15,243 nt of DNA from Deinococcaceae bacterium (GCA_040256005.1 JBDZWC010000072.1:1-15243), one strand, 5' to 3'. Shown: positions 1 to 13,209, counted from the first letter of the stretch. The notes: a model not told the origin generated them from the sequence alone. Numbers and translations: made by a program.

Positions 1-411
1 CAATGTGGAGATCTGGTCGTTGGGATGTTGAGCCATCACCCGCCAGATCACGCGCGTGGCGGGCTCGTAGCGCCAGGGGTCCGCACCGGCCCAGAGCAGG
101 GCAGACACGAGATCGGGACGCTCGGTCCTGATCGCGTACGCCAGCGGGGTCCAGGAGGCGCTCGTCACGTGGTTCGGGTCCGCGCCCGCCTCGAGCAGCG
201 TGGGAACCAACTGCGGTGCGTGCTCGATGGCGTACATCAGACCGGTCTGTCCATACGCGTCCGCGTACCACGCGAGTCGTACGTCGTCCTGCAGTGCCTG
301 GTGCACGGCAGGCACGTCGCCGCTCTTGACGAGTCTCAGGAAATCCTCACCGGACATGGCGGAGGCCATCGAAACGATGAGGAAGGCGATCAGGCACAAG
401 CAGTTTCGCAC
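1..411 (-). CDS. Secreted ankyrin-repeat protein (partial; 3' end runs off the window start)
   Basis: Not in the ORF track. Manual translation from GTG at 411 is open to position 1: MRNCLCLIAFLIVSMASA (signal-peptide-like) then ...DAYGQTGLMYAIEHAPQLVPTLLEAGADPNHVTSASWTPLAYAIRTERPDLVSALLWAGADPW, matching ankyrin G-x-T-P/x-L-x-x-A and LL-x-AGADPN motifs. Confidence 0.88.
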   Translation of the reverse strand, partial: MRNCLCLIAFLIVSMASAMSGEDFLRLVKSGDVPAVHQALQDDVRLAWYADAYGQTGLMYAIEHAPQLVPTLLEAGADPNHVTSASWTPLAYAIRTERPDLVSALLWAGADPWRYEPATRVIWRVMAQHPNDQISTL

Positions 412-502: not shown

Positions 503-531
503 TTGACATCTACGAATCGCCGTCGTACCCT
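503..531 (+). promoter_or_regulatory. Sigma70-type promoter of the BlaI/M56 operon
   Basis: TTGACA (503-508), 17-nt spacer, TACCCT (526-531). AGGAG SD at 558-562 precedes GTG 568. Confidence 0.75.
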
Positions 532-554
532 CTTGCTACGAATTGATATCGTAG
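510..554. promoter_or_regulatory. Two tandem palindromic operators for the BlaI-family repressor
   Basis: cTACGA-atcgccg-TCGTAc (510-528) and CTACGA-attgata-TCGTAG (536-554). They overlap the promoter spacer/-10 and the expected start site. The TAC...GTA dyad resembles the TACA/TGTA boxes of BlaI/MecI/CopY. Confidence 0.8.
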
Positions 555-567
555 GTCAGGAGTCAGT

Positions 568-951
568 GTGGCAGTCAAGCCGACCGACACCGAAGTCGCG
601 ATCCTAGATGTTCTCTGGGAGCGTGGACCGAGCACGGTTCGTGAGGTCCACGAGGCGCTCGATCGCACCGACCTGCGGTACACCACAACCCTCAAGCAAC
701 TGCAGATGATGTTCGAGAAGGGCTTCGTCTCGAGAGACGACAGCAACCGTACGCATGTCTACGCGGCCAAGATAAGTCGGGCTCGCATGGAGGAGATGCT
801 GGTCGAGAGCTTCATGCGGGGCATCTTCGGTGGCTCCGCTATGCGGCTGGTGACCCGAGCCCTGTCGGTCACGGGGGCGAGCGAACAAGAGAGAAGAGCG
901 GTCGAAGAGCTCATCGCCGAGATAGATGAGGCCAAGGATGCCGCCGATTGA
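568..951 (+). CDS. BlaI/MecI/CopY family transcriptional repressor
   Basis: KPTDTEVAILDVLWERGPSTVREVHEAL...YTTTLKQLQMMFEKGFVSRD...HVY winged-helix signature; 127 aa; adjacent to an M56 peptidase; SD present. Confidence 0.95.
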   Translation: MAVKPTDTEVAILDVLWERGPSTVREVHEALDRTDLRYTTTLKQLQMMFEKGFVSRDDSNRTHVYAAKISRARMEEMLVESFMRGIFGGSAMRLVTRALSVTGASEQERRAVEELIAEIDEAKDAAD

Positions 952-2338
952 CATGCTCGGCAACGCGCACATCCGCGTCCTGGGTTGGACTCTCGTGCAC
1001 TTCGTGTGGCAGGGAGCAGGTGTCGCAGCGCTACTCACGGTCATGTTGGCAGCGCTCAGGCGCTCTCGACCCGGAATCCGTTATGCCGTAGCCTGCGGGT
1101 TCCTCGCGATCGCCATATCTGTGCCAATAGCCACGTTTGCGTTCCTAGCGCCAAGAACGGGGCCGTCATCGAGGATCAGTTACAGCCTCGACCGGCCAGC
1201 AGATTGGGGCGCCCGTGCCGCAAGCTCCTCAAGAGGTGACGCGCCCACGCCCCGCCAAGGCTCGGCCGGCCCGACGATCGAGGCGTATCTGCCGCATCTA
1301 GTCGCGGTTTGGGTGATAGGGGTTCTAGTCCTCTCGGTGAGGATGCTCGGTGGACTCTGGCTCCTGAGGCGGCTGACTGCCCGTTTCAACCGCCCCGCTT
1401 CAGTGGCGCTCTTGACGAGGTTCGGACATCTCTCGCAACGACTTGGACTTCGGCGCAGCGTGAGACTACGAGAATCGCTGGCGGCGCGAGTTCCGCTAGT
1501 CATCGGCTGGCTGCGTCCCGTAATCCTCTTGCCGACCAGTGCGGTGAGCGGCCTCTCCATAGCCCAACTCGAGATGATCCTGGCGCACGAGTTGGCGCAT
1601 GTTCGCCGCCACGACTACCTAGTCAACTTGCTTCAACATCTGGTGGAGACGCTGCTCTTCTACCATCCTGCGGTCTGGTGGATCTCCGCGAAGGTGCGGG
1701 AGGAGCGGGAGAACTGTTGTGACGACCTGGCTGTCCGCGCTTGCGGCGGCAGTAGGGCCAGCTACGCGAAGGCCTTGGTTCAACTCGATGACCTGAACTT
1801 ATACCGGCTCGCTCCGGCAGCAACAAGCGGTTCTCTCCTACGTCGTGTCCAACGGCTCGCCGGCAGGGCTCCGATGCGACCACCCGGACCGGGGCAGTGG
1901 CTGGCCGGCGTAGCCCTTCTCGTCCTGCCGATCTTGACGATGGCTCTTGCCGGCAAGGTGCATGACATGACGCCGCTTTTGGGAACCTACCGGGCCGAGC
2001 CGGTGACCGTGACCGAGCTGTCCGAGGTGGGGTTCTCCGATGCTCTCGCGTGCGAGAACTCCGGGCCTTGGGTGCTCGTCTTCTCAGACCTCGGCTTCTT
2101 CAGCGGCAACGTGGATGCCGCGCCCGGTTGCACGTACCAGAGCCCCTTCGCGACTAGCTCCTGGACCGTCCACGGTGACCAGCTCACGTTTCGCGACTCG
2201 CGGGACTTCGGCTGCGGCCTGGAACTGTACCGCTACCGATACCATCTCGACGAACAGACCTTGACCCTGACACCTGTCAGCGACCCTTGCCCGGTGCGTG
2301 CCTACATCCTCTCCGCCCGGGCCTGGAGGAGGGCGTGA
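938..2338 (+). CDS. M56 family (BlaR1/MecR1-like) membrane zinc metallopeptidase with an atypical four-Cys C-terminal domain
   Basis: LGWTLVHFVWQG N-terminus, three N-terminal hydrophobic segments, PLVIGWLRPVILLP, HELAH (HExxH), RRHDYLVN, FYHPAVWW, ERENCCDD, then a fourth TM (WLAGVALLVLPILTMALAG). Overlaps the blaI stop. Start is uncertain (926/938/953); 938 has GAGG 6 nt upstream. Confidence 0.93.
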   Translation: MPPIDMLGNAHIRVLGWTLVHFVWQGAGVAALLTVMLAALRRSRPGIRYAVACGFLAIAISVPIATFAFLAPRTGPSSRISYSLDRPADWGARAASSSRGDAPTPRQGSAGPTIEAYLPHLVAVWVIGVLVLSVRMLGGLWLLRRLTARFNRPASVALLTRFGHLSQRLGLRRSVRLRESLAARVPLVIGWLRPVILLPTSAVSGLSIAQLEMILAHELAHVRRHDYLVNLLQHLVETLLFYHPAVWWISAKVREERENCCDDLAVRACGGSRASYAKALVQLDDLNLYRLAPAATSGSLLRRVQRLAGRAPMRPPGPGQWLAGVALLVLPILTMALAGKVHDMTPLLGTYRAEPVTVTELSEVGFSDALACENSGPWVLVFSDLGFFSGNVDAAPGCTYQSPFATSSWTVHGDQLTFRDSRDFGCGLELYRYRYHLDEQTLTLTPVSDPCPVRAYILSARAWRRA

Positions 2339-2369
2339 TCGAAACGGTTCGATCGCTTGGGGAGGGCTC

Positions 2370-2873
2370 ATGGGACTTCGGACGAAGAGACGGCTAGTGA
2401 CGCTAATGTTGGCTTGGACGTTCGGTGCCGTCCTGGCTCAAGAACCAGTAGTCACCGGCTCTCGAGTGGCGCCGGAATTGATGGGGTCGTACGTGACGGG
2501 GCCCTTCACGATCGAGGAGATCGCCCTGATGATCCCCGAACTCGGCAAGGACGACATCTGCGGCAATACGGGTACCTTCATCATGGACCTCAGAGCCGGC
2601 GGTTGGAGCTTGAACAACTACCCGATGCCCGGCTGCACCGGTTGGAACCCTGCGCTCATGGGTTCCTGGCGAGTACTCCGGAACAACGTTCTTGAGATCC
2701 AGGAGCTGGTCGACTTGGGGTGTGGACCGGCGGCGTACACCTACAACTGGCAGCTCGACGGCGACACGCTGACCCTGACCGCGCTCAACGACCCCTGTAC
2801 CGCTCGGATCTACTTCTTCACGGCTCGTCCGTGGCGCAAGGTGCCGAACGGAGCACAGCCACAATTTCAGTGA
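2370..2873 (+). CDS. Secreted hypothetical protein, paralog of the M56 C-terminal domain (four Cys, beta-rich, possibly lipocalin-like)
   Basis: GGAGG at 2361-2365 before ATG 2370. Signal peptide MGLRTKRRLVTLMLAWTFGAVLA|Q. Shares CxN(S/T)G, PGCT, SW, GCG, TLTLT, DPCxxR and ARxWR with the M56 C-terminus. Confidence 0.85.
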   Translation: MGLRTKRRLVTLMLAWTFGAVLAQEPVVTGSRVAPELMGSYVTGPFTIEEIALMIPELGKDDICGNTGTFIMDLRAGGWSLNNYPMPGCTGWNPALMGSWRVLRNNVLEIQELVDLGCGPAAYTYNWQLDGDTLTLTALNDPCTARIYFFTARPWRKVPNGAQPQFQ

Positions 2874-3006: not shown

Positions 3007-4170
3007 ATGAAAAACGGGTTCGTAGCGTCCGTGCTAGTCGCAGTGACTCTGATCGCTACTGCTCTGGCGCAGGGCGAGAAGGCACCCGCGACGACAATTA
3101 GCGACCAGACTCAAGCCCGTCTGCGCGTAGCGCACCTCGTTCGTGGCGGACCAGAGGTAGACCTGCTGATCGATGGCTCGGTAGCGTTCAACTTGGACGT
3201 TCGACAAGCCGGCCTGCCTGCTGGCTACATCGGCGGCTATCTGTATATCGAACCGGGCCGCCACGAGATCGCTGTGGTACCGACGGGGCGATCAATAGAC
3301 GCGGCTCTAATTGGCCCACTGGACCTGGGCCTCGAGGCAGGACATCGCTACACGGTGGCGGTGTTAGGGCAGCTCGAAGACCCGAGTCTCACGCCTCTCG
3401 TGATGGACGACACGGAGACGCTCAGAGAGGCGCGGACTTCGCCGGAACAAGGCATCATGATCCTGATCAACAACCTGGCAGACACGACGACCCTAGATTT
3501 CACGCTGGGGGGCGAGGGACCCATAGGAGTGCCCTATCTCGGCTTTGCTGCGGCGCCGATGGCTCTTTCAGTCGGCGCCCCGCTCAGGATCGCGACCGAC
3601 CTTGGAGTGATCGCCCAAGAACCCGGGCCAGGAATGGATCCTGCGGTCGAATTCTTGGTCGCCTTCTACGGCAGGACAGCGGGCGATGACTTCGCTGACA
3701 CCCAAAGCGAGAACACGAGTGACCTAGACATCGTTAGCTTCCTGCGGCAGTTCAGCGGCCGCGGTTTCGAGTGGGCCGGACACCCTATCTCATTCGAGCG
3801 GTTCCTGGAGGCGCTCGATGTCACCGGAATGGACGAGTTGCTTTCCAGCGGACGGACCTACCTGGTCTTCCCACCCACCGACGAGGCCTTCGCGCAACTT
3901 CCCGCAGAGAACCTTGCCGAACTCATGGGCGATGCGGACGCTCTGACGCAGTTACTGCGGTACCACATCGTCGAGGGTTACTTCCCGAAGCGAACACTTA
4001 CCGGAGAAGAGTACTGGGTCGGCCTCCATACCAATCTTGCGGGGACCGAGCTTCAGGTCACACCAACAAGCGTCGCAGGGAAGCCGACCGCCGATCTTCA
4101 GGACTACATGGTGGCGAACGGCAGCCGGGTTGCGCCCATCACCACGGTTCTATTGCCGGCTACGCGCTGA
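3007..4170 (+). CDS. Secreted DUF4397 + fasciclin (FAS1) domain protein
   Basis: Signal peptide MKNGFVASVLVAVTLIATALA|Q. DUF4397-like ARLRVAHLVRGGPEVDLLIDG...LEAGHRYTVAVLG. FAS1 H1 motif TYLVFPPTDEAFAQLP and LLRYHIV. AAGGGAG SD upstream. Confidence 0.85.
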   Translation: MKNGFVASVLVAVTLIATALAQGEKAPATTISDQTQARLRVAHLVRGGPEVDLLIDGSVAFNLDVRQAGLPAGYIGGYLYIEPGRHEIAVVPTGRSIDAALIGPLDLGLEAGHRYTVAVLGQLEDPSLTPLVMDDTETLREARTSPEQGIMILINNLADTTTLDFTLGGEGPIGVPYLGFAAAPMALSVGAPLRIATDLGVIAQEPGPGMDPAVEFLVAFYGRTAGDDFADTQSENTSDLDIVSFLRQFSGRGFEWAGHPISFERFLEALDVTGMDELLSSGRTYLVFPPTDEAFAQLPAENLAELMGDADALTQLLRYHIVEGYFPKRTLTGEEYWVGLHTNLAGTELQVTPTSVAGKPTADLQDYMVANGSRVAPITTVLLPATR

Positions 4171-4248
4171 CTTCTGGAGCGACTGCACGCTCCCACCGAA
4201 CTGAAGCGCGCAATAGGGGTCTTCGGGTTCGTCATACCGGAATAGAGA

Positions 4249-4282
4249 GATTCCCGCCCCCAACTTGACAGGGGCGGGAATC
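4249..4282. terminator. 12-bp GC hairpin between convergent genes (probable bidirectional terminator / REP-like copy 1)
   Basis: GATTCCCGCCCC (4249-4260), 10-nt loop, GGGGCGGGAATC (4271-4282); lies between stops at 4170 (+) and 4288 (-). Confidence 0.65.
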
Positions 4283-4287
4283 GCCGG

Positions 4288-5508: not shown

Positions 5509-5585
5509 TGGTCGGGGTGGCCGGATTTGAACCGACGACCACTTGACCCCCAGTCAAGTGCGCTACCAGGCTGCGCTACACCCCG
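5509..5585 (-). tRNA. tRNA-Pro (anticodon GGG)
   Basis: Reverse complement CGGGGTG TA GCGC AGCCTGGTA GCGC A CTTGA CT-GGG-GG TCAAG TGGTC GTCGG TTCAAAT CCGGC CACCCCG A CCA: 77 nt, full cloverleaf, encoded CCA. Confidence 0.98.
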
Positions 5586-8563: not shown

Positions 8564-10210
8564 CTAGCCCTCGATGACGGTCGGGACGATGAGCGGGTTG
8601 CGGCCGGTGGCCTTCCGGATGTAGCGGCGCACCGGGTAGAAGATGTCGTCGCGGATGTCCGACAGGGAGCGCTTCTCGCGCACGCCCTTCTGCAGGCTCT
8701 CCTGGGCGATGCGCTCGATCTCCTTGACCAGCCCGTTCTGCCCCTGCACTACACCGCGGGTGATGACCTCGACGGTGGGCGCCTTCTTGCTGGCCAGCGC
8801 CATGATCACGATCACGCCCTCCTCGGAGAGGGTGAGGCGGTCGCGGATGACGGGCTCGGTGACCTCGCCGACGCTGTCTATCAGCACCACGCCGGCGTCC
8901 ACCTGGGCCACGACCTTCATGTCGTCTTTGGTCAGCTCGACGACGTCACCGTTGCGCACGATCATCGACTTCTTGGGCGGGTGGGCCATCGAGCCCGCCA
9001 GGCGCTCGTGGTTGACCTGGTGGCGCATCTCGCCGTGCCACGGCACGAAGAACTTCGGCCGCGTGAGGTCCAGGATCAGCTTGAGCTCCTCCTGGCTGGC
9101 GTGACCGGAGGCGTGCACCTTGTACGCCGGCGGGTAGTAGACCTCCACCTGGCGCTCGTAGAGCTGGTTGATGACGCGGCCCACCGCCTCCTCGTTGCCA
9201 GGGATGGGGTTCGACGAGAGGATGACCGTGTCGCCCTTCTTGAGCTGGATCTTCCTATGCGTGCCGGCCGCCAGCCGCGAGAGCGCCGCCATGGGCTGGC
9301 CCTGCGACCCGGTGCAGAGGAACAGCACCTTGTCGTCCTGCATGTCGCCCAGCGTGTCGGTGGACGCGAACGGGTTGGTGGCCTTCAGGTACCCCAGGTC
9401 CTGGGCGATGGTGGCGTTCTTGATCATCGAACGCCCCTCCATGACCACGCGCCTGTCGTACTTCTCGGCGACGCGGATGAAGTTCTGGAGCCGGTGCACA
9501 TGGCTCGAGAACGTCGTCACGATCACGCGGCCCTTGGCTCGCGCCACGATGTCGTCCACGGCGTTCATGACGTCGCGTTCGCTGGGCGTGTAGCCCGGGC
9601 GCTCGGCGTTGGTGCTGTCCGAGATGAGCAGCAGCACGCCGTCCTGGCCGGCCTGAGCCAGCTTGTGCAGGTGGCTGGTGCGGCCGTCGGCCGGGTGGTA
9701 GTCGAGCTTGAAGTCGCCGGAGTGGACGATGCGCCCGATGGGGGTGTGTATCACCAGCCCCGAGTTGTCGGGGATCGAGTGCGTCATCTGGAAGAAGTCC
9801 ACGGTGAAGTTCTTGCTCACCTTGATGCGGTCGTCGGTGGTGACCTGCCTGAGGTCGACGTCGGACTCCTTGATGCGGAACTCCTCGAACTTGCCCCTGA
9901 GCAGGCCCAGCGTGAGCTTGGCGCCGTACATGGGGACCTTGGGCAGCAGCCTGAGCATGTGCGGGATGCCGCCGATGTGGTCCTCGTGGCCGTGCGTGAG
10001 CACCCAGCCCTTGATCTTGTGGGCGTTCTCGACCACCCAGTCGATCTTCGGGACCAGGATGTCGACGCCCAGCATGTCGGCGTCGGGGAAGGCCAGGCCG
10101 CCGTCGACCAGCAGGACCTCGTCCTCGTACTCGAAGGCGAACATGTTCTTGCCGATCTCGCCCATGCCCCCGAGGGGGATCATGCGCAGCTTGCGTTCTT
10201 CTCGTGCCAT
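8564..10210 (-). CDS. rnj: Ribonuclease J
   Basis: IPLGGMGEIGKNM, THGHEDHIGG (MBL motif), HSIPD, SGDFK, DSTNA, TGSQGQPMAALSR, HASGHA; 548 aa; GGAGA SD. Confidence 0.97.
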   Translation of the reverse strand: MAREERKLRMIPLGGMGEIGKNMFAFEYEDEVLLVDGGLAFPDADMLGVDILVPKIDWVVENAHKIKGWVLTHGHEDHIGGIPHMLRLLPKVPMYGAKLTLGLLRGKFEEFRIKESDVDLRQVTTDDRIKVSKNFTVDFFQMTHSIPDNSGLVIHTPIGRIVHSGDFKLDYHPADGRTSHLHKLAQAGQDGVLLLISDSTNAERPGYTPSERDVMNAVDDIVARAKGRVIVTTFSSHVHRLQNFIRVAEKYDRRVVMEGRSMIKNATIAQDLGYLKATNPFASTDTLGDMQDDKVLFLCTGSQGQPMAALSRLAAGTHRKIQLKKGDTVILSSNPIPGNEEAVGRVINQLYERQVEVYYPPAYKVHASGHASQEELKLILDLTRPKFFVPWHGEMRHQVNHERLAGSMAHPPKKSMIVRNGDVVELTKDDMKVVAQVDAGVVLIDSVGEVTEPVIRDRLTLSEEGVIVIMALASKKAPTVEVITRGVVQGQNGLVKEIERIAQESLQKGVREKRSLSDIRDDIFYPVRRYIRKATGRNPLIVPTVIEG

Positions 10211-10400: not shown

Positions 10401-12785
10401 CTAGTCCTCCTCGCGGCGCGGGCCGCGTGGTCCATCGTGGCGGGGACCGCCCTCGCGACGAGGGCCGCGGTCGGCACCGCCCTCTTGCGGGCCCCTGTCG
10501 CCGCGGAACCCCCCGCGCTCGCCGCCGTCACGTGGGCCGCGGTCGCCGCGGAAGCCTCCGCGGTCGCCACGGTCGCCTCTGTCACCGCGGAAGCCGCCGC
10601 CGTCCCTGCCGCCGCGATCCCCTCGTGGGCCGCCACGGCCGCCGCCCCCACCGCCGCGCGCGGCGCGTGGAGCGACCTTGCCCTCCAGCTCGGGGCGGAC
10701 CAGGTCGATCTTGCCGCGCTCGTCGATGTTGTTGACCTTGACCTTGAGGTGGTCGCCCTCCTTGAGGTAGTCCTCGACGCGCTGGACGCGCTCCTCGGCG
10801 ATCTGGCTGATGTGCAGCAGGCCGTCCGTGCCGGGGAAGAGGGTGACGAACGCGCCGAACTCGGTGGTCTTGGCGACCCTGCCGTCGTACTCCTTGCCTA
10901 CCTCGGCGGACTGCGTCAGGCCCTGGATCTGAGCCTTGACGGAGTTGGCCGCCTCGGAGTCTTCGGAGTAGATGCGCACGGTGCCGTCCTCGAGGACCTC
11001 GATGGTGGCGCCCAGCGCCTCGAGCTCGCGGATCTGCTTGCCGCCCGGCCCGATGACCGCGCCGATCTTGTCGACGGGGATCTTGACCTGGATGATGCGC
11101 GGTGCCTTGGGCGAGAGCTCCGGCCGCGGTCCGGCGAGGGCCTCGGCCATCTTGCCCAGTATGTGCAGCCGACCGCGCTTGGCCTGCTCCAGCGCCTCGC
11201 GCATGATCGCAGCGGTGATGCCGCCGATCTTGATGTCCATCTGCAGGGCGGTGACGCCTTGTGAGGTGCCGGTCACCTTGAAGTCCATGTCACCCAGGGC
11301 GTCCTCGCTACCCAGGATGTCCGAGAGGACCTTGTACCGGTCGCCCTCCTTGACCAGGCCCATCGCGATGCCGGCTACTGGGGCCGAGACCGGGACGCCG
11401 GCGTCCATCAGCGACAGCGAACCGGCGCAGACCGAGGCCATCGAGGACGAGCCGTTCGACTCGAGCGTCTCGGCCACGATCCTGATCACGTAGGGGAAGT
11501 CTTCTTGCGAAGGGATCGTGCCGGCCAGGGCCCTGCGGGCGAGGTTCCCGTGGCCGAGCTCGCGGCGCGAGGTGCCGCGCAGGCGCTTGACCTCACCCGT
11601 CGAGAACGGCGGGAAGTTGTAGTGCAGCATGAACTCTTCGGTGGTGTCCAGGCCGAGGTCGTCCACAAGCCGGTTGCTGCGGCCCGTGCCCAGCGTGGTG
11701 ACGCCCAGCACCTGCGTCTCGCCGCGCGTGAACACAGCCGAGCCGTGCGCCTGAGGCAGCACGCCGGTCTCGATCCAGATGGGCCTGATCTCGTCAGGGC
11801 GCCTGCCGTCGGTGCGCGTGTCGTCCTCGATGACCATGCGCCTCAGCTCGGCCTGCTCGGCCTTGTCGAAGGCGGCCTTGAGCTGGTCGATGCGCTCGGC
11901 CGCGCCCTCGGCCTCTGGATCAGGCACGTGGCTGGCGATGATGGAGTCGCGCAGCGCCTTCACGGCGTGTGCCCGGTCGTGCTTGCCCTTCGTCAACAGC
12001 GCGTCCCTCAGGCCGGCTGCCCGGGCCGCGAGCGCGACCTCTTCGATCAGCATGCTGTCTAGCTCCGTCGCCGGAGCGAACTCGCGCTTGGGCAGGCCGA
12101 TCTCCTCGCGCATGCGGTCGATGAGGGCGACGACCGGCGCTAGCTGTGCCTGCGCGAACTCGATGGCGCCCACCATCACGTCTTCCGGCAGCTGGTCGGC
12201 GGCCGCTTCCACCATGAGCACGGCATCAGCGGTGGCGGCCACCGTGAGCTCGAGCTGACTGCCGCCCTCGTGGAGGACCTTCATGCTCGGGTTCACGACG
12301 TACTGGCCGTCCACGTGCCCGACGCCGCAGCAGGCCGTTGGCCCGTTCCAGGGCACGTCGGATATGGCCAGGGCCGCCGAGGCGCCGATGGCCGCGAGGG
12401 GGGCCGGGTCGTTCTCCTGGTCGGCGGAGAGCACCGTGGCGATGACCTGGATCTCGTTGCGAAGCTGCTTCGGGAACAAGGGGCGGATCTGTCTGTCGAT
12501 GAGGCGGGCGTTGAGGGTCGCCTGCGTGCCCGGCCTGCCTTCGCGGCGCATGAAGGAGCCCGGGATCTTACCCACCGCGTAGTGGCGCTCCTCGTACTCG
12601 ACCGTCAGCGGCAGGAACGGCATGGGCGACGTGGCGTCGCTCATGGCCGCCGTGACGAGCACGAGCGTGTCGCCGTAGCGGACGGTGACGCTGCCGTGCA
12701 GCTGCTTGGCGTACTTGCCGGTCTCGATCGTGAGTTGCCTGCCGCCGACCTCGGTCTGGTAGACGCGATGACTCTCTAGGTTCAC
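10401..12785 (-). CDS. pnp: Polyribonucleotide nucleotidyltransferase (PNPase)
   Basis: [84 protein letters not shown] ([10 protein letters not shown]) and S1 (FGAFV...DGLLHISQI). Start placed at GTG 12785 after AGAAGGAG. Confidence 0.98.
10404..10680 (-). repeat. Low-complexity RGG/RGDRG coding repeats in the PNPase C-terminal tail
   Basis: GGFRGDRG x3 plus several RGDRG/GPR units after the S1 domain. Confidence 0.85.
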
Positions 12786-12939
12786 TCTCTCTCCTTCTGC
12801 TCCCGCTCCGCTGCCCCTAGCGCGGCTACCGCCCAACTACGTGGACGGCGAGGCGACAGGCGCCTCGCCGCGAAAGACGTCGTGTTCATGCCGCATCCGG
12901 CGCAGGCGCCGGTACAGGCGTGTATGTGACTCGAGAAGT

Positions 12940-13209
12940 TCAGCGCCGCAGGCCGAGCCGGGCGATGAGGTCCTTGTAGGCCTCGTAGTCCGTGCGCTCC
13001 AGGTACGACAGCAGGCGCTTGCGCTTGCCGACCATCATCAGCAGCCCGCGGCGGCCGTGGTGGTCTTTCTTGTGGGTCTGGAGGTGCTCCGAGAGCTCCT
13101 CGATCCTCTTGGTGAGCAACGCGACCTGGACAGCGGTGGAGCCGGTGTCCTGGGCGTCCCTGCCGAAGGTCTTGGCGACCTCGGTCTTCTGTTCGGCGGT
13201 GAGAGGCAT
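12940..13209 (-). CDS. rpsO: 30S ribosomal protein S15
   Basis: [16 protein letters not shown]...[29 protein letters not shown]...LGLRR; 89 aa; AAGGAG SD; upstream of pnp. Confidence 0.99.

What the first reader, a model, noticed from the sequence alone, without database searches (positions are those of the whole stretch)
1961..2873. M56 sensor domain is duplicated next door as a free secreted protein (sensor plus soluble copy)
Seen: the ~125 aa after the last M56 TM helix align by eye end to end with the mature product of 2370-2873: LLGTY/LMGSY, ACENSG/ICGNTG, APGCT/MPGCT, SSWTV/GSWRV, DFGCG/DLGCG, YHLDEQTLTLTPVSDPCPVRAYILSARAWRR/WQLDGDTLTLTALNDPCTARIYFFTARPWRK. All four Cys are conserved, suggesting two disulfides, and the divergence elsewhere implies an old, retained duplication. 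Known: the BlaR1 sensor is a class D beta-lactamase-fold domain, so sensor and induced effector recognise the same ligand. Inference: same logic with a different fold. The membrane copy would sense a ligand and trigger derepression, and the soluble paralog would bind, sequester or degrade that ligand (negative feedback), or act as partner/inhibitor of the sensor. I do not recognise this domain as a named family.
Basis: partly seen in the sequence, partly recalled or inferred. Interest (0 to 1): 0.85.

Follow-up and report, generated by a model that had tools for sequence, protein, structure and literature searches.

The report
Lipocalin-sensor BlaR1 switch with secreted twin
A repressor and membrane-protease gene switch of the kind that senses penicillin in Staphylococcus carries a different end domain, predicted to be an outward-facing, lipocalin-like barrel, and the next gene encodes a 42%-identical free copy predicted to be secreted; the free copy is likely switched on to mop up the unknown signal, but this pairing was seen in only one species.

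Summary
The last ~125 aa of the M56 protease align with the mature product of 2370-2873 (48/114 identical; score 197, best of 5000 shuffles 58). Both domains are predicted to be 8-stranded, lipocalin-like barrels with two disulfides and reach no Pfam cut-off. The domain belongs to an unnamed family of exported modules (156 representatives): mostly free, also on anti-sigma-like and TRAP-binding proteins.

New here: two perfect TACGA-N7-TCGTA palindromes over the blaI promoter (the genome's only tandem pair); a signal-peptidase-like A-x-A after the last helix in 17 of 17 M56 orthologs; and sensor and free copies form sister clades.

Best reading: a self-repressed non-canonical BlaI/M56 operon whose free paralog is likely an induced sink for an unknown ligand (0.45). 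Against a general rule: adjacency is shown in one species only, 0 of 42 other evaluable Deinococcota M56 loci have a neighbouring tail paralog, and free orthologs (1 plus a fragment) are scarcer than fused ones (14). Non-penicillin M56 sensors are known to be common. New variant of a known kind.

The parts
503..531 (+). Likely sigma-70 promoter: perfect TTGACA (503-508), 17 nt, weak -10 TACCCT (526-531)
   Evidence: Read from sequence. The strict consensus scan did not call it, so it is inferred.
511..527 (.). Candidate BlaI operator 1, palindrome TACGA-N7-TCGTA over the spacer and -10
537..553 (.). Candidate BlaI operator 2, same palindrome, 26 nt downstream
   Evidence: 2 exact matches; 0.13 expected; 0 of 200 shuffles reach 2; only tandem pair in the genome
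568..951 (+). BlaI/MecI/CopY-family repressor (127 aa)
   Evidence: PF03965 80.5 bits, cut-off 22.6; closest solved relative 2g9w, E 1e-11
938..2338 (+). M56 (BlaR1-type) membrane zinc protease, 466 aa from ATG 938 (ORF open from 926), overlapping the blaI stop
   Evidence: PF05569 114.5 bits, cut-off 31; BlaR1 8exs/8exp E 3e-6; HELAH 1586-1600, ENCCD 1709-1723
1181..1189 (+). Y-x-L motif in extracellular loop EL1, invariant in an otherwise variable loop; candidate tethered pseudo-ligand (inferred)
   Evidence: Y86 and L88 in 12 of 12 full-length orthologs; loop mean conservation 0.45
1895..1951 (+). Last transmembrane helix ending in A-L-A (1943-1951), a signal-peptidase-I-like site (predicted)
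   Evidence: [AV]-x-A at the helix exit in 17 of 17 orthologs, against 0 of 14 correctly anchored TM2 exits
1973..2335 (+). Membrane-borne barrel domain (putative sensor), 4 Cys (codons at 2051, 2129, 2213, 2288)
   Evidence: conservation 0.81 against 0.84 for the protease core
2335..2356 (+). Intergenic hairpin without a U-tract, just before the RBS of the free copy; role unknown
2370..2873 (+). Free paralog: 23-aa Sec-type leader (2370-2438), mature barrel 2439-2870, Cys codons 2559, 2634, 2721, 2796
   Evidence: (pLDDT 94, pTM 0.86)
3007..4170 (+). Exported DUF4397 + fasciclin protein, probable fourth gene of the operon
   Evidence: PF14344 48 bits, PF02469 55 bits; no + strand terminator called before it
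1..411 (-). Divergent ankyrin-repeat protein with a hydrophobic leader, cut by the contig end; possible divergon member
   Evidence: PF12796 36 bits; hydropathy

Best explanation
This is a BlaI repressor plus M56 membrane-protease operon whose C-terminal domain is predicted to be an outward-facing, disulfide-bonded lipocalin-like sensor barrel, and whose adjacent free paralog is likely an induced, secreted binder that soaks up the same or a related signal. Proposed steps: (1) BlaI binds the two TACGA-N7-TCGTA palindromes and represses its own operon (palindromes shown; binding inferred). (2) A small ligand, probably hydrophobic or amphipathic, binds the membrane barrel and perhaps displaces the EL1 loop, as in BlaR1 (inferred). 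(3) The cytoplasmic HExxH/ExxxD protease cuts BlaI (motifs shown; cleavage inferred from BlaR1). (4) The operon is derepressed and the free barrel and the DUF4397-fasciclin protein are exported (gene order shown; co-transcription inferred). (5) The free barrel lowers free ligand, and signal peptidase sheds the unliganded sensor at A-x-A to reset the switch (motif shown; inferred from BlaR1 G331|Q332). Origin, inferred: an exported barrel gene duplicated, and one copy fused to the protease, its signal peptide becoming the last helix.
For: Homology 48/114 identical, above all 5000 shuffles. Same secondary-structure order and same top structural matches for both domains: 2m4l Z 9.3 (rmsd 2.7, 91 aligned) for the free copy and Z 9.6 (rmsd 2.5, 90 aligned) for the fused one; VtrC 5kev_B Z 8.4 and 8.1. 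C1 and C2 are present together in 35 and absent together in 48 of 83 aligned rows, none discordant, pointing to C1-C2 and C3-C4 disulfides (related rows, not independent). The barrel is as conserved as the protease across 12 orthologs, 0.81 vs 0.84. The family recurs on other signalling or binding proteins: 4 zinc-finger anti-sigma-like and 8 RskA-like N-termini among 149 hits by my loose patterns, and DctP fusions, including the closest M56 paralogs P0169, P0171-P0173, P0206. Fused (8 rows, 98/99) and free (2 rows, 100/98) domains are sister clades (93/86). Tandem palindromes, the only such pair in the genome. A-x-A in 17 of 17, with signal-peptidase shedding shown for S. aureus BlaR1 (PMC9834060, passages). 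In C. difficile CenIR the most induced gene (about 500-fold) is the exported protein just downstream (PMC13492132, sections 6 and 13).
Against: No ligand, binding or cleavage data. Adjacency is shown in one species only; the one ortholog locus fetched (L006) ends at the domain end. Free orthologs are scarcer than fused ones: comparable word searches gave 1 non-self free and 5 non-self fused; in all, 14 other intact fused proteins against P0002 plus fragment P0051. The word search found only 5 of those 14, so it is insensitive. 0 of 42 other evaluable Deinococcota M56 loci have a tail paralog nearby. The sister grouping is not starred and the bootstrap had not settled; sensor-free mean identity (37%) is only modestly above identity to other family members (31%). 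Positions in strands 2-3 differ in a fixed way between clades, so the ligands may differ. Z of 8-10 is modest, Foldseek gave no E <= 0.001, and a shared fold shows no function.
Confidence: 0.45

Rival explanations
1. Fusion-donor relic with its own job: M56 genes routinely capture a downstream exported gene, signal peptide included. Here a duplicated exported gene left one free copy that is co-regulated as an output but has diverged in ligand and does not feed back on the sensor.
For: The last helix looks like a captured signal peptide (17 of 17). 5 of 12 Deinococcota M56 genes picked by eye keep an in-frame AAGGAG + ATG before that helix. The closest M56 paralogs carry whole exported proteins (DctP, PF00144). 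Clade-specific residues; free orthologs are scarce; distant free copies lie without a nearby M56 in G357 and G358.
Against: Both clades keep all four Cys and the core. The free copy has a 62-67% identical ortholog elsewhere, so it is under constraint, and it sits 31 nt after the M56 stop behind the same operators.
Confidence: 0.27
2. Co-component or trans-acting partner: the free barrel binds the sensor barrel or the EL1 loop, as VtrC partners VtrA. It either completes the receptor or takes the place of the shed sensor, and so tunes protease activity directly.
For: VtrC (5kev_B) and ToxS (8u2f) are among the structural neighbours. Co-component systems pair a membrane regulator with an adjacent lipocalin-like protein (PMC9214523, abstract and section 7). 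BlaR1 is a dimer whose EL1 competes for the sensor site (PMC9834060, passages). Y-x-L is invariant in EL1; the sheddable junction is conserved.
Against: An obligate partner should be about as common as the fused form and is not. The free copy has no lipobox or membrane anchor. In VtrA/VtrC only one partner has the lipocalin fold, whereas here the receptor already has its own barrel.
Confidence: 0.2
3. Protease-inhibitor output: the barrels are potempin/Inh-like inhibitors; the fused copy senses a foreign protease by binding it and the free copy neutralises it.
For: Potempin E is a close structural neighbour (8ehc Z 8.2, rmsd 3.4, 87 aligned). Weak Pfam Inh hit (E 0.18). Eight-stranded potempins inhibit genetically linked peptidases (PMC9890683, abstract only). 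Disulfide-closed loops are predicted.
Against: These matches tie with many unrelated lipocalin-like proteins. The Inh hit is far below cut-off. No secreted protease gene lies in the window, and the M56 site is cytoplasmic, out of the free copy's reach.
Confidence: 0.08

Closest known systems
BlaR1/BlaI and MecR1/MecI of S. aureus (PDB 8EXP-8EXT; PMC9834060, passages read)
   Same: BlaI-family repressor next to an M56 protease with HExxH and ExxxD, four predicted helices, a variable EL1 loop, a C-terminal domain after the last helix, a signal-peptidase-type site at the helix-sensor junction, and inverted-repeat operators.
   Different: No penicillin-binding domain; the end domain is a ~120-aa predicted lipocalin-like barrel. 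No beta-lactamase or PBP gene in the window. The neighbour is a free paralog of the sensor.
Non-canonical BlaIR systems: C. difficile CenIR (PMC13492132; abstract, sections 6, 12, 13), P. aeruginosa PvmSR (10.64898/2026.08.03.742534; abstract, section 5), M. tuberculosis BlaI (2g9w)
   Same: No beta-lactam sensor; unknown signal. CenIR's main target is a small exported protein encoded just downstream. Only about 6% of ~15,000 M56 proteins have the transpeptidase domain.
   Different: CenR's tail is largely unstructured and CDR_0474 is reported to resemble no other protein. Here the tail is a folded barrel and the downstream protein is its paralog.
VtrA/VtrC and ToxR/ToxS co-component systems (PMC9214523; abstract, section 7)
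   Same: Membrane regulator with an adjacent, co-encoded lipocalin-like extracytoplasmic protein; fold match Z 8.4.
   Different: Output is repressor proteolysis, not a membrane transcription factor. Both partners have the barrel. No anchor on the free copy. Heterodimer untested.
Bacterial lipocalin-like proteins of unknown function (BT_0846 2m4l, BACUNI_03114 2mhd, BACOVA_00364 4gzv; Pfam Lipocalin_4, DUF5640) and potempin E (8ehc)
   Same: Predicted 8-stranded antiparallel barrel, Z 8-9.6; some family members hit Lipocalin_4 or DUF5640.
   Different: 7-15% identity; added two-helix insert, C-terminal helix and two predicted disulfides; the window proteins stay below the Pfam cut-offs.

Membership tests
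BlaIR-type (M56 + BlaI) regulators | Adjacent BlaI/MecI/CopY repressor | tested here: met
   PF03965 80.5 bits vs cut-off 22.6
BlaIR-type (M56 + BlaI) regulators | M56 domain with HExxH and ExxxD | tested here: met
   PF05569 114.5 vs 31; HELAH aa 221-225, ENCCD aa 262-266
BlaIR-type (M56 + BlaI) regulators | Four membrane helices, C-terminal domain outside | tested here: met
   Hydropathy peaks aa 23-44, 50-78, 117-148, 322-347 plus a weaker 184-207; orientation inferred from BlaR1 topology, not measured
BlaIR-type (M56 + BlaI) regulators | Inverted-repeat operator(s) at own promoter | tested here: met
   Two exact palindromes; binding itself untested. The likeness to the M. tuberculosis BlaI consensus is recalled and was not found in the papers read.
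BlaIR-type (M56 + BlaI) regulators | Signal-dependent cleavage of the repressor | not testable with these tools
   Needs experiment
Canonical beta-lactam sensor BlaR1/MecR1 | C-terminal transpeptidase (penicillin-binding) domain; equivalog score | tested here: not met
   No PF00905 hit; NF000326 88 bits vs cut-off 400
Canonical beta-lactam sensor BlaR1/MecR1 | Linked beta-lactamase or PBP gene | tested here: inconclusive
   None in the window, but the contig ends 567 nt upstream of blaI
Lipocalin-like barrel fold | Eight-stranded antiparallel barrel | tested here: met
   Predicted model with 8 strands, pLDDT 94; Z 9.3 and 9.6 to 2m4l
Pfam Lipocalin_4 (PF13648) | Gathering score 22.4 bits | tested here: not met
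   13.5 bits for the sensor domain; no hit for the free copy
Lipocalin-like barrel fold | Ligand-binding cavity | not tested
VtrA/VtrC-type co-component system | Membrane-bound transcription factor with its own DNA-binding domain | tested here: not met
   The membrane protein is an M56 protease; DNA binding is by a separate BlaI
VtrA/VtrC-type co-component system | Adjacent gene for a lipocalin-like extracytoplasmic protein | tested here: met
VtrA/VtrC-type co-component system | Obligate heterodimer | not tested
   No complex prediction was run
Potempins | Lipoprotein encoded beside a secreted peptidase | tested here: not met
   Leader has no lipobox Cys; no secreted peptidase adjacent

The most novel reading that the evidence does not exclude
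The secreted twin is a plug-in receptor subunit. Signal peptidase sheds the protease's own barrel at the conserved A-x-A site, and the induced twin docks on the invariant EL1 motif or the remaining sensor and resets or retunes the switch. 'Sensor plus soluble copy' would then be a general design of M56 systems, reached by gene duplication here, by internal translation starts in other Deinococcota M56 genes, and by shedding in BlaR1.
Probability: 0.15. Interest if true: 0.8.

Novelty: new variant of a known kind. Interest (0 to 1): 0.5.

Why it matters
About 94% of BlaR1-like proteases lack a penicillin sensor and their signals are an open question (PMC13492132). This locus offers a compact handle: a 125-aa, confidently modelled barrel, a naturally soluble twin for ligand fishing, a defined operator for a reporter, and 14 orthologs to guide mutants. 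It would add the lipocalin-like fold to the M56 sensor repertoire, linking BlaIR systems to the bile-sensing VtrC/ToxS fold class. It also annotates an unnamed family of about 150 exported modules that recurs on anti-sigma-like and TRAP proteins. Limits: the pairing is documented in one uncultured species found in landfill and waste metagenomes, and similar pairings with other folds have been noted repeatedly in this scan.

Tried and rejected
Pfam and NCBIfam gave no named family for either barrel. PDB sequence searches gave only low-complexity or weak, non-credible hits. ESM Atlas best scores were 0.88-0.89, leads only. Foldseek gave no E <= 0.001. The full-length M56 model was poor outside the barrel (pLDDT 55.9, 8 sequences) and was not used for topology.

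Context of orthologs: the genome-contig scan with the sensor alignment found none; viral contigs and plasmids none; the metagenome scan gave 2 loci, one the same species and one cut at the domain end. The cluster look-up could not be made, so neighbours and taxa of P0002 and P0004-P0009 stay unknown.

The first neighbour-paralog test failed its positive control through an ORF-overlap filter and was discarded; it was redone with masking. Of 61 M56 matches, 7 on short or broken contigs were not fetched, 2 fetched loci gave no hit with my profile, and 10 of 53 ORFs had too short a tail or flank.

Complex prediction (sensor + free barrel) never ran because the queue was full; there is no verdict.

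Expression: no RNA holder listed; runs guessed as RNA gave flat or near-zero cover; no conclusion.

Literature: BlaR1 + lipocalin + BlaI gave 0 papers; BlaR/M56/paralog/secreted/extracellular domain (4 of 5 terms) gave 0. The library is open-access only and no supplements were read (Table S3 of PMC13492132 lists the C-terminal domains of C. difficile BlaR-like proteins).

Rejected: an enzyme role for the free copy (no catalytic motif evident); a recent tandem duplication or assembly artefact; an internal start in this M56 gene (ATG at codon 317 has no clear RBS). P0155 is probably a false hit (Ig repeats).

Full report
1. Observation. The window holds blaI (568-951), an M56 protease gene (938-2338), a 167-aa gene (2370-2873) and an exported DUF4397-fasciclin gene (3007-4170), all on +, with a divergent ankyrin gene cut by the contig end. 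The last 125 residues of the protease align with the mature 167-aa protein at 48 of 114 identities, score 197 against a maximum of 58 in 5000 shuffles. All four cysteines align and DNA similarity has almost gone. These are the only two copies in the genome. An independent assembly (L005) and single contigs in other runs carry the same pair; DNA holders come from 8 studies, one possibly the source.

2. The domain. No Pfam or NCBIfam family reaches its cut-off. A profile of three sequences found 156 representatives at E <= 0.001, of which 150 were listed. Among the 149 non-self hits, 65 have a lipobox-like leader, 4 a zinc-finger anti-sigma-like N-terminus, 8 an RskA-like N-terminus and 1 is an M56 (loose patterns of my own); others are tandem repeats or fusions to DctP, SnoaL, NHL and FG-GAP domains. 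With an 83-row alignment the free copy folds at pLDDT 94 into eight strands with a two-helix insert and a late helix. The fused domain shows the same element order in an otherwise poor full-length model. Both retrieve the same neighbours: 2m4l (Z 9.3 and 9.6), 2mhd, 4gzv, VtrC (8.4 and 8.1), Tp0751 and potempin E. These Z values are modest and Foldseek gave no E <= 0.001, so the result is a fold class, not a function. The first two cysteines are present together in 35 rows and absent together in 48 of 83, never singly, which points to C1-C2 and C3-C4 disulfides and an oxidising location.

3. The switch. The protease has HELAH (aa 221-225) and ENCCD (262-266) and four hydrophobic helices, matching the N-out/C-out BlaR1 layout (PMC9834060, passages). 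Two exact TACGA-N7-TCGTA palindromes at 511-527 and 537-553 cover a TTGACA promoter; 0.13 are expected and 0 of 200 shuffles reach two. The genome has 3 exact sites and only this tandem pair. BlaI regulators are described as binding paired inverted repeats at their own operon (PMC8457756, passages). No operator lies before the free gene, which starts 31 nt after the protease stop, so co-transcription is inferred. The last helix ends in [AV]-x-A in 17 of 17 orthologs, against 0 of 14 correctly anchored second-helix exits (one further row was mis-anchored and scored positive). S. aureus BlaR1 is shed by signal peptidase at this junction (PMC9834060). This is a motif count, not a SignalP run. Across 12 full-length orthologs the barrel is as conserved as the protease (0.81 vs 0.84), and the variable EL1 loop (0.45) keeps an invariant Y-x-L.

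4. Evolution and spread. Fourteen other intact M56-barrel proteins were found, plus two broken ones (P0027, P0165). Free orthologs are P0002 (62-67% identical) and a fragment, P0051. In a tree of 57 of 195 domains (four-Cys, M56 or zinc-finger rows), fused (98/99) and free (100/98) copies are sister clades at 93/86, unstarred, with the bootstrap not settled. The closest M56 paralogs carry whole exported proteins, DctP or a PF00144 hydrolase, and five DctP fusions end in the same barrel family. The cassette is patchy: 3 of 364 genomes of the phylum match, counting this one, and 0 of 11 of the genus; the other two are distant free copies with no M56 within 1.5 kb. It has lower GC3 (0.70-0.77) than the housekeeping-type genes of the window (0.91-0.97), and the ortholog in L006 lies beside IS genes and PglZ/BrxL-like ORFs (names recalled, not scanned), suggesting horizontal movement. 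In 401 genomes of the phylum of a Thermoflexales genome, 16 had the barrel at E <= 1e-6; in the loci I could see (output partly cut) they were free, tandem or DctP/cupredoxin-like fusions, with no M56 seen.

5. Is 'sensor plus free copy' a rule? I tested 53 M56 ORFs (52 from Deinococcota genomes including this one, plus L006); 43 had a tail of 80 aa or more and at least 1.5 kb of downstream DNA. Only this locus has a tail paralog nearby (1 of 43). A first version failed its positive control and was discarded. Earlier AI notes of this scan describe the same layout with other folds in other phyla; I did not check them, and they are leads, not support. Five of 12 hand-picked Deinococcota M56 genes keep an in-frame AAGGAG + ATG + signal peptide before the last helix, which could yield a soluble sensor from the same gene.

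6. Mechanism. Best reading (0.45): an autorepressed switch senses an unknown, probably hydrophobic ligand with its barrel, cuts BlaI, and induces a secreted twin that binds the ligand and damps the signal; shedding at A-x-A resets it. Shown: homology, motifs, palindromes, gene order, conservation. Predicted: fold, disulfides, topology, export. Inferred: ligand, cleavage, induction, feedback. Rivals: a co-regulated relic of the fusion donor with its own ligand (0.27), a direct partner of the receptor as in VtrA/VtrC (0.2), a protease inhibitor (0.08). The scarcity of free orthologs and the fixed residue differences between clades weigh against an obligate, same-ligand pair.

7. Known systems and novelty. 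It is a member of the broad BlaI/M56 class and not a canonical BlaR1 (no transpeptidase domain; NF000326 88 vs 400 bits). Non-penicillin sensors are the majority (about 94% of ~15,000), and CenIR induces a downstream exported protein about 500-fold (PMC13492132, sections 6, 12, 13). I found no paper joining BlaR1/BlaI with a lipocalin sensor or a secreted paralog in the open-access library; supplements were not read. Papers seen: PMC13492132 (abstract, three sections), PMC9834060, PMC7593790, PMC8457756, PMC4757040 (passages), PMC9214523 (abstract, section 7), 10.64898/2026.08.03.742534 (abstract, section 5), PMC9890683 (abstract). The placement of the host among Truepera-like Deinococcota is my inference from gene content and GC; no call named it. 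Verdict: real, a new variant of a known kind, experimentally tractable; interest 0.5.

Noticed in passing
L105, L106, L108, L109, L110 (M56 ORFs, just before the last helix): In-frame AAGGAG + ATG + signal peptide inside the M56 gene (encoding K-E-x-x-M); a possible internal start giving a free secreted copy of the C-terminal domain (amidase-like in L105, L106, L108 by eye). 5 of 12 genes picked by eye.
   Followed up: partly
L073, L077, L092, L097: The M56 last helix ends in a lipobox-like L-x-A-C, so these sensor domains may be lipidated and cut by signal peptidase II.
   Followed up: no
L069, L070, L072, L081, L082: Short-tailed M56 genes followed directly by a secreted HtrA/DegP-like protease gene (family recognised by eye), suggesting an envelope-stress regulon.
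   Followed up: no
proteins P0169, P0171-P0173, P0206; P0078; L032: M56 + DctP + one or two barrels of this family; free DctP + tandem-barrel proteins also exist, and P0206 carries both barrel subtypes.
   Followed up: partly
L001:6401-9318 (G000 contig C12): Second BlaI/M56 pair in the same genome, with a long tail ending in a redoxin-like domain, followed by two ABC-permease-like genes; it lacks the TACGA-N7-TCGTA operator.
   Followed up: partly
window 952-1004: Strains in runs X8 and X12 carry 17 clustered substitutions in the first ~20 codons of the M56 gene, with few elsewhere: a likely recombination patch.
   Followed up: no
window 1885-2139 (run X2, record 18): A diverged contig (38 differences) whose loose end matches decayed protein P0027: a second, degenerate copy of the M56-barrel gene in the same community.
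   Followed up: no
window 4247-4284 and 5509-5585: Strong hairpin between convergent genes where contigs of several runs break or diverge (about 4291), and a tRNA-Pro(GGG) 1.2 kb further on, a possible integration site; the TetR gene between them was not found in 5 same-genus genomes at E <= 1e-30.
   Followed up: partly
L013, L116, L119, L022, L027: In Chloroflexota the free barrel lipoproteins often lie beside a divergent XRE-HTH + ATPase (+ TPR-like) regulator gene, hinting at another signalling link for the family.
   Followed up: no
window 10401-13209 (-): rpsO-pnp and RNase J (8564-10210) housekeeping genes, recognised by eye; ordinary.
   Followed up: no
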